From an uncultured archaeon (lineage in GTDB: Archaea; Asgardarchaeota; Lokiarchaeia; Sigyniarchaeales; SOKP01): a stretch of DNA of 64,000 bases. Below, piece by piece: positions 62,495-64,000 of the stretch. The number at the start of each line of letters is the position of its first letter. Positions within the stretch are counted from its first letter, which is position 1. The notes beneath the pieces are model-generated. The model had not been told where the DNA came from, searched no databases, and saw nothing but the letters and a program-made list of their open reading frames with translations. Made by a program: the position numbers and the translations under genes. The stretch covers positions 8,190 to 72,189 of the forward strand of contig CAZDTP010000014.1 of NCBI GenBank assembly GCA_964508365.1, in the 5' to 3' direction.

Positions 62495-63790
62495 GTGAAA
62501 ATAATGAAAAAAGTAGCTATTGTTGGGGTAGGAATTACCCCTTTTAGAGCAAGATATTTGGATAAAACATATTTCGAGCTCGCCTACGATGCGACTAAAC
62601 TCGCTTTGGAAGATGCGAACAAAAATGGGGCGGAAATTACTCATAACAATTTAGAATCTACGGTTTATGGTATATATAACGAGTTATTTGAACGACAATT
62701 CATGCCGGATATCTTTATAAATTCGTACATCGGAATGAATAATAAACCGGGAACGCGAATAGCTTCTGGGGGCGCTACTGGAGGTTATACCGTGAGAATG
62801 GCATACGCGGAAGTAGCCTCTGGGCTTTCTGATCTATGTCTCTGTCTTGGTGTGGAGAAATGTAATGACTGTTATGACGAACAGACCGGTGTGACAACCC
62901 CTGAAGTCTTGAACGCAATCGCTTATTCAGCAGACATGACATACGAATATCCAATGGGTATGATGGCCGCCAGTTCATATGTTTCAATGGTTAACGCTCA
63001 TTACGAAGAATTTGGTAATCCAACTGAAGAACAAATGGCTTATGTTAGCGTCAAGAATCACGGAAATGCCATATTAAACCCGAAGGCACAATCTCCAATG
63101 AAAGTAAGCGTGGAGGATGTTCTAAACTCACGTATCATATGTTTTCCTTTCAAGATGCTTGATTGTTGCTTGTATTCGGAAGCTTCCGCTGCACTTATTC
63201 TGGCATCAGAAGATAAAGTGAAGGAGTTAAAAATTGAAAAACCAATATGGATTACCGGAGTCGATGCAGCGAATACTGATTGTTTTATTGGTAATCGGGA
63301 GGATATGGGTCGTCTTTATTCAAATATCTATGCTGCAAAAGGCGCTTATAAAATGGCTGGTCTTGATTATAGTAAGATAAAGAACCAAATTGACCTCGCT
63401 GAGCTTCATGATGCCTTCTCTGGACATTATTTGTCATAAAGACAATTCGCCAGTCAAGAAGTCATCTCGTATGAGGAACTTGGATTCGTACCTTTTGGAG
63501 AGGGTGGTCCGTGGATAAAGAAAACATTTGAAAAACCAGGAGAGGGTCCATGGTTAGAGGGAGAACTCCCGTGTTGTCCCTCAGGTGGATTGATAGGTTG
63601 TGGACACGCTGTTGGTGCAACGGGAATTATGAGCACAGGTGAAGCTGCTCTTCAATTAAGAGGAGAAGCAGGAAAACATCAAGTATCAATTAATAAAGGG
63701 AGAGCTATATCTCATTCTATTGGAGGTCCTGGTGCTGCCTATGCTGCTATAATCGTAATGGTAAACGAGGAGGGGATGAAGAAACCATGA
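62495..63790 (+). CDS. Thiolase-family protein (SCP2/HDAF type), split as join(62495..63425,63456..63790) by a 30-nt intron
   Basis: ELHDAF, CPSGGLIGCGHAVGATG, HSIGG. The frame continues unchanged after the TAA at 63437-39; removing 63426-63455 gives a continuous 421-aa thiolase. Confidence 0.88.
63426..63455 (+). other. Predicted bulge-helix-bulge intron in a protein-coding gene
   Basis: Outer helix CTTCT/AGAAG, 4-bp central helix CTGG/CCAG, 3-nt bulges AC|A and TC|A, inner hairpin TTGTC/GACAA. Confidence 0.85.
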
Positions 63791-64000
63791 GCGAAGAGTT
63801 TCAAGACCATCAAATTCGAGATGTCATAAAAATTAACTACAAATACACGATGGGTGGACAATCGAAGTTTTTTATTGAAGTGATGAAAAATAAGAGACTT
63901 TTAGGTACAAAATGTAAGAAGTGCGGAAAAACTTGGATGCCTCCAAGAATTAATTGTTCTGATTGTTACGAACCTGCAGATTGGGTGGAGCTTAAACAGA
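63787..64000 (+). CDS. DUF35 Zn-ribbon/OB-fold thiolase partner, 3'-truncated by window edge
   Basis: ATGA overlap with the thiolase stop; GTKCKKCGKTWMPPRINCSDC. Confidence 0.88.
   Translation, partial: MSEEFQDHQIRDVIKINYKYTMGGQSKFFIEVMKNKRLLGTKCKKCGKTWMPPRINCSDCYEPADWVELKQ

What the first reader, a model, noticed from the sequence alone, without database searches (positions are those of the whole stretch)
63415..63461. Canonical BHB intron inside a protein-coding (thiolase) gene: candidate mRNA splicing by the tRNA endonuclease
Seen in sequence: the thiolase frame reads ELHDAFSG-HYLS*RQFAS-QEVISYEELG, a 30-nt in-frame insert containing TAA just after the catalytic HDAF loop. The flanks fold exactly as a BHB: exon-exon helix CTTCT(63415-19)/AGAAG(63457-61), 4-bp helix CTGG(63420-23)/CCAG(63450-53), two 3-nt bulges on opposite strands both ending in A (ACA 63424-26, TCA 63454-56), and intron hairpin TTGTC/GACAA. 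Established: EndA cuts after the second nucleotide of each bulge. That excises 63426-63455 and gives GGA-CAA-GAA (G-Q-E), restoring the frame and the HDxFxxxE spacing. BHB introns in archaeal mRNAs are known mainly from crenarchaeal cbf5. Inference: this is a functional mRNA intron in a metabolic gene of a probable Asgard archaeon, possibly acting as a splicing-dependent expression switch. Genes like this would be mis-annotated as pseudogenes, so more may be hidden genome-wide. I cannot confirm novelty without a literature search.
Basis: partly seen in the sequence, partly recalled or inferred. Interest (0 to 1): 0.95.

Follow-up and report, generated by a model that had tools for sequence, protein, structure and literature searches.

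The report
tRNA-type mini-intron in Asgard thiolase gene
A 30-base insert with a stop codon that breaks a thiolase gene of a Loki-type Asgard archaeon is very probably an intron cut out of the mRNA by the tRNA-splicing enzymes; this genome has at least five more in protein genes, and the papers I could search confirm such splicing for only one archaeal gene (cbf5).

Summary
The thiolase gene 62504-63790 (+) carries a 30-nt insert (63426-63455) with an in-frame TAA.

Comparative evidence supports an mRNA intron:
- About 80 orthologs lack exactly these 30 nt and read DAFSGQEV, the junction the BHB cut rule predicts.
- Eight copies from genome assemblies and 11 metagenome contigs keep the insert.
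- The exon after the stop is under strong purifying selection (dN/dS 0.03-0.18).
- The intron is far more conserved than synonymous sites (4/30 against 123/148 variable).

The organism is a Promethearchaeota (Loki-type Asgard) MAG. It encodes a two-subunit, crenarchaeal-type EndA and RtcB. I confirmed similar ~30-nt introns in the thiolase paralog, leuS, aIF2-gamma, uppS and an AIR-synthase-like gene. Orthologous thiolases carry such introns at six positions.

No RNA data exist, so splicing is inferred. The "expression switch" idea has no support.

This scan had already reported the same phenomenon on other DNA, including this genome. In the searchable literature, cbf5 is the only confirmed case.

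The parts
62504..63425 (+). Exon 1 of the thiolase-superfamily gene (307 codons plus the first base of the Gln codon); ends with HDAFSG
   Evidence: Pfam Thiolase_N; NCBIfam 'thiolase domain-containing protein', below curated cut-offs
63426..63455 (+). 30-nt BHB-type mini-intron (predicted excised segment)
   Evidence: Absent as exactly 30 nt from about 80 orthologs. Kept in 8 distinct copies from genome assemblies and 11 metagenome contigs. Only 4 of 30 sites vary, against 83% of fourfold sites
63437..63439 (+). In-frame TAA inside the intron hairpin loop; it terminates the unspliced reading frame
   Evidence: invariant in all copies
63456..63790 (+). Exon 2 (last two bases of the Gln codon, 110 codons, stop)
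   Evidence: Pfam Thiolase_C_1 positions 52-141 of 144, so the domain is split by the insert. dN/dS 0.03-0.18 among intron-bearing copies
63410..63419 (+). 5' strand of the exon-exon outer helix (GAUG, one unpaired C, CUUCU); pairs with 63457-63466
   Evidence: MFE fold; 100% of cells paired in 10 copies, but several of these rows were fetched with a pattern that fixes these columns
63420..63423 (+). 5' strand of the 4-bp central helix (CUGG, exon); pairs with 63450-63453 (CCAG, intron)
   Evidence: the one variant CCAG to CUAG keeps pairing as G-U
63424..63426 (+). 5' bulge ACA; predicted cut between 63425 and 63426
   Evidence: Geometry plus the cut rule of PMC2738675. In the MFE it is part of a larger loop
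63431..63445 (+). Intron hairpin UUGUC-AUAAA-GACAA
   Evidence: 98% of cells paired
63450..63453 (+). 3' strand of the central helix (CCAG, intron)
63454..63456 (+). 3' bulge UCA; predicted cut between 63455 and 63456
   Evidence: True 3-nt bulge in the MFE. The first two bases vary (U/A, C/U) and the third is the exon A
63457..63466 (+). 3' strand of the exon-exon outer helix (AGAAG, one unpaired U, CAUC)
63787..64000 (+). Start of the co-oriented, 4-nt overlapping downstream gene: ChsH2/DUF35-type zinc-ribbon plus OB protein, the usual partner of this thiolase class (context only)
   Evidence: Pfam zf-ChsH2 and OB_ChsH2_C on the full-length paralog copy

Best explanation
Positions 63426-63455 are an archaeal bulge-helix-bulge (tRNA-type) mini-intron inside the coding sequence of a thiolase-superfamily gene of a Promethearchaeota (Loki-type Asgard) archaeon. 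In the pre-mRNA, the end of exon 1 pairs with the start of exon 2 (outer helix) and with the 3' end of the intron (4-bp central helix). This presents two cut sites 4 bp apart on opposite strands. The two-subunit splicing endonuclease EndA cuts after C63425 and after C63455. RtcB joins the exons to give ...UCU GGA C|AA GAA..., which encodes the uninterrupted enzyme (DAFSGQEV); the 30-nt intron is released, probably as a circle. Shown here: the structure, the exact ortholog-defined boundaries, selection on exon 2 and on the intron, the presence of the enzymes, and like introns in essential genes of the same genome. Inferred: that cutting and joining happen, and that EndA and RtcB do it.
For: (1) Boundaries. 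About 80 orthologs from Promethearchaeota MAGs lack exactly 30 nt and read GAT GCN TTY (TCN or AGT) GGN CAR GAR, which is DAFSGQE, the junction predicted by the BHB cut rule (rule from PMC2738675). The chance of an all-Watson-Crick BHB in a compatible register is about 1e-4.
(2) The gene is alive. Among the six intron-bearing copies compared (window, its paralog, four genomes), exon 2, which lies beyond the TAA, has dN/dS 0.03-0.18 at dS 0.2-1.7, the same as exon 1. There are no further stops or frameshifts.
(3) The intron is constrained. 4 of 30 sites vary against 123 of 148 fourfold-degenerate sites in the same eight sequences (Fisher P 3e-13). All changes lie in unpaired positions or keep pairing as G-U.
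(4) Independent assemblies. The intron is present in 8 distinct copies from genome assemblies and 11 metagenome contigs.
(5) A natural deletion product. Intron-less copy L037 keeps the intron-type exon flank (GCTGAGCTTCATGATGCCTTCTCTGGA|CAAGAG), as expected for precise loss at the predicted junction.
(6) Machinery. There are two EndA paralogs of 200 and 201 aa. One is closest to the Aeropyrum pernix catalytic subunit (3p1z_B, E 1e-33) and keeps the Tyr/His/Lys triad and the Lys aligned with K44 of the crenarchaeal loop that confers relaxed-BHB specificity (PMC6379350). The other lacks the His (one search shows it is an EndA homolog), so I read it as the structural beta subunit. There is one RtcB. 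17 of 29 ARAGORN tRNAs have introns.
(7) The cell must splice such introns. BHB-bounded inserts of 29-30 nt break single-copy leuS (29 nt, frameshifting), aIF2-gamma inside GHVDHG|KT (29 nt) and uppS (30 nt with TAG). A textbook hBHBh' intron sits in an AIR-synthase-like gene.
(8) Orthologous thiolases carry 28-35-nt BHB-like inserts at five other positions. Several have lengths not divisible by 3, and one helix shows compensatory changes.
Against: There is no RNA-level evidence of any kind: no spliced junction, no circular intron. The metagenome scan found only the unspliced DNA form. The 5' half of the motif is weak: the 5' bulge is closed by a single G-U, and the strict form costs +3.1 kcal/mol more than the MFE. 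No compensatory double substitutions support the helices of this particular intron, so its structure rests on conservation. Parts of the conserved flanks in the metagenome rows are fixed by the search pattern. High intron conservation could partly reflect recent spread rather than selection. A genome-wide scan for BHB motifs that merge open frames showed no excess over mock geometries, so the motif by itself has no predictive power here. The genome has about 12 thiolase-like genes, so this gene is not individually essential.
Confidence: 0.85

Rival explanations
1. Dead gene: the 30 nt are a neutral insertion that inactivated the thiolase, one of about 12 paralogs, so the locus is a pseudogene.
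For: There is an in-frame TAA, and many thiolase paralogs could compensate.
Against: Exon 2 shows dN/dS 0.03-0.18 at near-saturated dS across all intron-bearing copies, with no secondary lesions. The insert is conserved far beyond synonymous sites. The same kind of insert sits in essential single-copy genes of the same genome.
Confidence: 0.03
2. Programmed translational bypassing: ribosomes hop over the 30 nt, as in phage T4 gene 60 or the 'byp' elements of yeast mitochondria, and the mRNA is never cut.
For: A short hairpin-containing insert with a stop codon shortly after the take-off region superficially resembles bypass elements (own knowledge; sequence).
Against: There is no matched take-off and landing codon pair. 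GGA (63422-24) has no GGN near the 3' end (GCC AGT CAA), and the same holds for the leuS and aIF2-gamma inserts. The boundaries are instead predicted exactly by BHB geometry in several unrelated inserts. The host has an intron-rich tRNA set and a broad-specificity-type EndA.
Confidence: 0.04
3. The insert is removed from the RNA, but not by EndA/RtcB or not at the predicted phosphodiesters. Four neighbouring registers also give the ortholog protein.
For: The relaxed 5' half of the motif; five registers are protein-compatible (my reading).
Against: No other RNA-splicing system for 30-nt inserts is known in archaea. There is no Rfam family here and no group I/II features. The BHB register is the one with 9 Watson-Crick pairs. 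Other inserts in this genome are textbook BHBs.
Confidence: 0.05
4. An add-on rather than an alternative: splicing of this intron is regulated and acts as an expression switch for the thiolase.
For: Only the strong conservation of unpaired intron bases, including the loop AUAAA, which could hint at an extra binding partner.
Against: Similar introns sit in constitutively needed genes (leuS, aIF2-gamma, uppS). Close relatives do without the intron. No regulatory element or partner gene was found nearby.
Confidence: 0.08
5. Assembly or sequencing artefact.
For: Both thiolase copies of this genome lie near contig ends.
Against: The same 30 nt, with small differences, occur in about 19 independently assembled contigs from different studies.
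Confidence: 0.005

Closest known systems
BHB intron of the cbf5 (pseudouridine synthase) pre-mRNA of Crenarchaeota (Watanabe 2002; Yoshinari 2006; Yokobori 2009, PMC2738675)
   Same: It is a short intron inside an archaeal coding sequence, bounded by a mostly relaxed BHB, with cuts between the 2nd and 3rd bulge residues. It is linked to a hetero-oligomeric (alpha-beta)2 EndA. It is patchily present among relatives, implying gain and loss.
   Different: The gene is different (thiolase, not cbf5) and so is the phylum (Promethearchaeota/Asgard, not Crenarchaeota). The sequence is not homologous. It is one of at least six CDS introns in this genome, and one of six positions within one gene family. 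cbf5 splicing was shown experimentally; this case was not.
Non-canonical archaeal tRNA introns, abundant in Asgard archaea (bioRxiv 10.64898/2026.10.13.758758; PMC11291895)
   Same: The motif, the size range (about 20-40 nt) and the presumed enzymes are the same. This genome's tRNA genes are also intron-rich.
   Different: [quoted passage not shown] The intron-bearing copies fix their synonymous sites there. Those two papers describe tRNA introns only.
Unconventional cytoplasmic splicing of HAC1/XBP1 mRNA in eukaryotes (Ire1 cut; joining by tRNA ligase or RtcB)
   Same: A short intron (26 nt in XBP1, longer in HAC1) is removed from a coding mRNA by a non-spliceosomal endonuclease, and the tRNA-ligation machinery seals the exons (own knowledge; RtcB role cited in PMC6379350's reference list).
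   Different: The endonuclease there is Ire1 acting on stem-loops, not EndA on a BHB, and that system is a stress switch. No evidence of regulation was found here.
Translational bypass elements (T4 gene 60; mitochondrial 'byps')
   Same: Short stop-containing inserts in coding sequences that do not appear in the protein.
   Different: Those need matching take-off and landing codons, and the mRNA stays intact. No such codon pair exists here, and BHB geometry explains the boundaries.

Membership tests
Archaeal BHB intron (EndA substrate) | 4-bp central helix flanked by two 3-nt bulges on opposite strands | tested here: inconclusive
   The central helix CUGG/CCAG and the 3' bulge UCA are present in the MFE. 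The 5' ACA is a 3-nt bulge only if U63427-G63449 forms, and the strict form is 3.1 kcal/mol above the MFE. The motif fits the relaxed 'hBH' class described in PMC6379350.
Archaeal BHB intron (EndA substrate) | An outer (exon-exon) or inner (intron) helix stabilises the motif | tested here: met
   The outer helix is 5 bp plus 4 bp and the intron hairpin is 5 bp. 99% of cells are paired in 10 copies.
Archaeal BHB intron (EndA substrate) | Cutting between bulge residues 2 and 3 yields the functional mature RNA | tested here: met
   The predicted junction GGA C|AA GAA equals the sequence of intron-less orthologs, DAFSGQEV.
Archaeal BHB intron (EndA substrate) | Host encodes a splicing endonuclease able to cut relaxed motifs, and an RNA ligase | tested here: met
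   There are two EndA paralogs. The alpha-like one has the catalytic triad and the CSL-type Lys; the beta-like one has no His. There is one RtcB. This was read from sequence only.
Archaeal BHB intron (EndA substrate) | Excision and exon ligation observed in RNA | not testable with these tools
   No transcript data were available. The metagenome scan returned only intron-containing DNA.
cbf5 pre-mRNA intron family | Located in cbf5 at the catalytic Asp codon; homologous among Crenarchaeota | tested here: not met
   The host gene is a thiolase. This intron shares the mechanism class but is not the same intron family.
Programmed translational bypass element | Matching take-off and landing codons flanking the skipped segment | tested here: not met
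   No GGN, and no other matching codon, lies at the 3' edge. The same holds for the leuS and aIF2-gamma inserts.
Group I / group II self-splicing intron | Catalytic RNA core of hundreds of nt with an Rfam model match | tested here: not met
   The insert is only 30 nt, and there is no Rfam match at the site even at E up to 1.
Transposon or MITE insertion | Target-site duplication, terminal inverted repeats, dispersed copies | tested here: not met
   No flanking direct repeat was found. The sequence occurs only in the two thiolase copies of the genome, even allowing 6 mismatches.

The most novel reading that the evidence does not exclude
Promethearchaeota (Loki-type Asgard archaea) maintain a dynamic population of about 30-nt EndA/RtcB-spliced introns in protein-coding genes. 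These include essential single-copy genes (leuS, aIF2-gamma, uppS), and they are gained and precisely lost repeatedly: six positions in one thiolase family, and at least 2-4 changes for this intron alone. Routine mRNA splicing by the tRNA machinery would then be a normal part of gene expression in the closest known archaeal relatives of eukaryotes.
Probability: 0.7. Interest if true: 0.85.

Novelty: new member of a known kind. Interest (0 to 1): 0.72.

Why it matters
For archaeal protein-coding genes, the literature I could search confirms BHB splicing only for crenarchaeal cbf5. A 2009 paper says other cases were merely predicted (PMC2738675), and a 2025 endonuclease paper still cites only the cbf5 work (PMC12397907). 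Here the same mechanism appears in Asgard archaea, in a metabolic gene and in essential translation and cell-envelope genes of the same genome, with several intron positions per gene family.

Three consequences follow:
- Gene callers will report such genes as truncated or as pseudogenes, which distorts metabolic reconstructions of Asgard MAGs.
- The exon sequence is constrained by the need to build half of the splice motif.
- It gives a concrete, testable case of mRNA intron gain and precise loss without a spliceosome, in the lineage closest to eukaryotes.

The caveat is that everything rests on comparative sequence evidence. This scan had also already flagged the phenomenon elsewhere, including in this genome.

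Tried and rejected
(1) Genome-wide discovery by motif. I enumerated BHB geometries (4-bp helix, at least 3-bp outer helix, 20-45-nt intron) whose removal fuses two open frames. The real 3/3-bulge geometry gave about 1,100 sites, and so did five mock geometries at every stringency tried. The motif plus an ORF merge therefore cannot find these introns; adjacent genes and chance helices dominate.

(2) A greedy 'fix each stop with the best BHB' routine picked wrong, chance motifs in multi-intron orthologs. I replaced it with ortholog-guided boundaries.

(3) Candidate C9:66152-66178 (27 nt, good helices) has no Pfam or paralog support and is left unverified.

(4) I searched public metagenome contigs for the spliced form, using a pattern with a 0-30-nt gap. 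All 11 hits contained the 30 nt and none was the spliced form.

(5) Covariation in this intron: there are no double compensatory changes. The shuffle controls are uninformative because the columns hardly vary.

(6) Co-conversion or homing. The 30 nt upstream of the intron are more alike among intron-bearing copies (0.90-1.00) than against intron-less ones (0.63-0.82), but the effect is short-range. Selection on the exon half of the motif explains it equally well. No homing-endonuclease gene was seen next to the gene.

(7) Considered and rejected: pseudogene, read-through of TAA with 10 extra residues (orthologs lack them, and sister introns of 28, 29, 31 and 35 nt cannot be read through), translational bypass, group I/II intron, MITE, and assembly error.

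(8) ARAGORN found no tRNA in the window.

(9) I did not use the large protein-database searches or structure prediction, because they could not distinguish RNA-derived from DNA-derived sequences.
Full report
**1. What is in the sequence**

The + strand frame that starts at ATG 62504 runs to TAA 63437-39. Read through that one stop, it continues in the same frame to 63790, giving 428 residues. Exon 1 matches Pfam Thiolase_N. The part after the stop matches positions 52-141 of the 144-position Thiolase_C_1 model, so a single domain is interrupted. NCBIfam places the protein among 'thiolase domain-containing' / SCP-x-like proteins, below the curated cut-offs.

A ChsH2/DUF35-type zinc-ribbon plus OB gene overlaps the thiolase stop by 4 nt, and an OYE-family flavin oxidoreductase lies upstream.

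The minimum-free-energy fold of 63405-63471 (-17.3 kcal/mol, z = -3.2 against 200 shuffles) contains:
- a 5+4-bp exon-exon helix;
- the 4-bp helix CUGG/CCAG;
- a true 3-nt bulge UCA on the 3' strand;
- the hairpin UUGUC-AUAAA-GACAA.

The 5' 'bulge' ACA, however, lies in a 7x4 internal loop. Closing it as a strict 3-nt bulge costs 3.1 kcal/mol. The motif is therefore a relaxed BHB (hBH type in the terms of PMC6379350), not a strictly canonical one.

**2. Is it more than chance?**

A loose BHB pattern (4 pairs plus at least 3 outer pairs, G-U allowed) occurs about 80 times in this gene alone. The motif by itself is therefore worthless. What matters is that it coincides with an independently defined indel.

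At one fixed register and length, an all-Watson-Crick 4+5-bp BHB has a frequency of 1.7e-5 in this genome (2.5e-4 with G-U allowed). Five registers would give the ortholog protein. The coincidence is therefore of the order of 1e-4 to 1e-3.

**3. Comparative evidence**

The genome holds a second copy of the gene (C2, 94% protein identity) with the same insert, differing at 2 of 30 bases.

Whole-genome searches and the GTDB contig scan gave 89 distinct orthologous sequences. Nearly all come from MAGs titled Promethearchaeota or Promethearchaeia, which identifies the organism as a Loki-type Asgard archaeon. Eight of these sequences carry the insert. About 80 lack exactly these 30 nt and read GAT GCN TTY (TCN or AGT) GGN CAR GAR, which is DAFSGQE.

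The rule quoted in PMC2738675 places cuts between the second and third bulge residues. Applied here it removes 63426-63455 and gives GGA C|AA GAA, which is exactly that sequence.

Among the six intron-bearing copies compared, exon 2 has dN/dS 0.03-0.18 at dS 0.2-1.7. That is indistinguishable from exon 1, and there are no further lesions. The codons after the stop have therefore been translated in frame throughout the divergence of these copies.

The intron itself varies at only 4 of 30 sites. In the same eight sequences, 123 of 148 fourfold-degenerate sites vary (P about 3e-13).

Eleven further metagenome contigs carry the intron. Their variants change loop or bulge bases, or turn a G-C into a G-U. 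99% of pair cells stay paired, but there are no double compensatory changes, and part of the flank invariance in these rows is imposed by the search pattern.

On a maximum-likelihood tree the intron is confined to one well-supported 17-member clade (SH-aLRT 99), with 8 members carrying it and 9 not. This needs at least 2-4 gains or losses. One intron-less member (L037) keeps the intron-type exon flank and reads ...TCTGGA|CAAGAG. This looks like a precise loss at the predicted junction.

**4. The same gene elsewhere, and other genes here**

Orthologous thiolases of other Promethearchaeota carry 28-35-nt inserts at five further positions. One species has four in the one gene. Several lengths are not multiples of three, so read-through is excluded for them.

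Their folds share one architecture: an exon-exon helix, a short central helix between the exon-1 end and the intron 3' end, about 3 unpaired nt on each strand, and a hairpin with a 5-nt loop. The inner helix of class D shows compensatory changes: CAUUAAAAC/GUUUUAAUG against AAUUUUAAC/GUUAAAAUU.

In the window's own genome I confirmed four more interrupted genes besides the thiolase paralog:
- **leuS.** It is single copy. A 29-nt frameshifting insert splits PMGYD|SFGLPAEN. The Pfam model tRNA-synt_1g continues from position 46 to 48 across it. Congeners either have a 30-nt version or lack it exactly.
- **An AIR-synthase-related gene.** The 30-nt insert gives a textbook hBHBh' fold with 10-bp outer and inner helices. 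Congeners are the same length or exactly 30 nt shorter.
- **aIF2-gamma.** It is single copy. A 29-nt insert sits inside GHVDHG|KT, with central helix AUGG/CUAU. The gene is uninterrupted in five relatives.
- **uppS.** It gave a single match. A 30-nt insert with TAG splits the DG|NRRWA motif.

The last two were leads from earlier notes of this scan. Because three of these genes are essential and single-copy, the cell must remove such inserts from mRNA. This is the strongest indirect argument that the thiolase insert is removed too.

**5. Machinery**

The genome encodes two EndA paralogs of 200 and 201 aa. Both have the N- and C-terminal endonuclease domains.
- One is closest to the catalytic subunit of the Aeropyrum pernix heterotetramer (3p1z_B, E 1e-33). 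It keeps the Tyr/His/Lys triad. It also has a Lys aligned with K44 of the 'Crenarchaea-specific loop', the residue required for cutting relaxed motifs (PMC6379350).
- The other lacks the catalytic His (one search shows it is an EndA homolog), so I read it as the structural beta subunit.

There is one RtcB. ARAGORN finds only 29 tRNAs in a genome rated 100% complete, 17 of them with introns. This fits the heavily interrupted tRNA genes reported for Asgard archaea (bioRxiv 10.64898/2026.10.13.758758; PMC11291895).

**6. Mechanism and rivals**

Best explanation (0.85): EndA cuts the pre-mRNA after C63425 and C63455, and RtcB joins the exons. The structure, the boundaries, the selection, the enzymes and the parallel cases are shown. 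The cutting and joining themselves are inferred.

Rivals:
- **Pseudogene.** Contradicted.
- **Translational bypass.** There is no matching take-off and landing codon pair here or in the sister cases.
- **Another nuclease or another register.** Not excluded, but without positive support.
- **Transposon or MITE.** There is no target-site duplication and no dispersed copies.
- **Assembly artefact.** About 19 independent contigs carry the insert.
Nothing supports it, and like introns in housekeeping genes argue for constitutive removal.

**7. Limits of genome-wide prediction**

A scan for BHB geometries whose removal merges two open frames gave about 1,100 sites for the real geometry, and the same number for five mock geometries. 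The extra introns were found only after adding paralog continuity or very strong helices, or from family searches. A proper census must therefore start from homology, not from the motif.

**8. Comparison with what is known, and novelty**

The nearest described case is the cbf5 pre-mRNA intron of Crenarchaeota. It shares the mechanism class, the relaxed motifs, the hetero-oligomeric EndA and the patchy distribution (PMC2738675). This intron is not a member of that family, because the gene, the phylum and the sequence all differ.

Four full-text searches found no report of BHB introns in Asgard protein-coding genes. The Asgard papers found deal with tRNA introns only, and a 2025 endonuclease paper cites only the cbf5 work for mRNA. 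My searches cover open-access papers and bioRxiv only.

Within this scan the phenomenon is not new. Earlier notes describe BHB introns in coding genes of DPANN and Asgard genomes, including a thiolase-like gene with three introns, and in this very genome leuS, aIF2-gamma, uppS and others.

I rate it a new member of a known kind. It is of substantial interest because of the lineage, the number of genes and positions involved, and the consequences for annotation. It is limited by the absence of RNA evidence.

Noticed in passing
G000 contig C33:27701-27729 (-), locus L110:2902-2930: Single-copy leuS is split by a 29-nt, frameshifting BHB insert between PMGYD and SFGLPAEN. Congeners have a 30-nt version or lack it exactly.
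   Followed up: yes
G000 contig C3:30946-30975 (-), locus L111:1247-1276: An AIR-synthase-related (ThiL/HypE/SelD-like) gene carries a 30-nt insert. Its MFE is a textbook hBHBh' with 10-bp outer and inner helices. Congeners are the same length or exactly 30 nt shorter.
   Followed up: yes
G000 contig C43, locus L184:2680-2708 (-): Single-copy aIF2-gamma has a 29-nt insert inside the P-loop GHVDHG|KT (central helix AUGG/CUAU). Five relatives, including three single-contig genomes, have the gene uninterrupted.
   Followed up: yes
G000 contig C13:47171-47881 (+), locus L185:1501-2211: uppS (a single match in the genome) reads ...LILDG I*KCFPLLNG NRRWA: a 10-codon insert with TAG inside the catalytic DGNRRWA motif.
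   Followed up: partly
Loci L026, L032, L089, L095, L025, L027, L083, L069, L090 (orthologous thiolases): There are five further intron positions in the same gene family, after nt 376, 441, 457, 538 and 917 of the intron-less coding sequence, with lengths of 28-35 nt. One species (L026) has four introns. Two introns in L025, L027 and L083 are separated by a 13-nt micro-exon. L069 has a different intron 4 nt upstream of the window's site.
   Followed up: partly
Loci L030 (DATKTP010000175.1) and L102 (DAOVMD010000455.1): Contigs carrying this Promethearchaeota thiolase sit in MAGs titled Candidatus Deferrimicrobium and Mcinerneyibacteriota, which are bacteria. L030 has the intron and is nearly identical to the C2 paralog. 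These are probably mis-binned contigs.
   Followed up: no
G000 C14:70693-71976 and C2:154553-155836: Both thiolase copies lie within about 600 nt of a contig end. In the C2 locus the thiolase-DUF35 pair is flanked on both sides by SCP2-domain genes that are near-duplicates of each other. This looks like a locally duplicated lipid/acyl-CoA cluster that breaks assemblies.
   Followed up: no
whole genome G000: ARAGORN finds only 29 tRNA genes (17 with introns) in a genome rated 100% complete. Many tRNA genes are probably hidden by multiple or non-canonical introns.
   Followed up: no
G000 contig C9:66152-66178 (+), locus L112:753-779: A 27-nt segment with a good BHB (5-bp outer, 4-bp central, 7-bp inner helices) would join two open frames of a hydrophobic protein that has no Pfam match. 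It is unverified and may be chance.
   Followed up: partly
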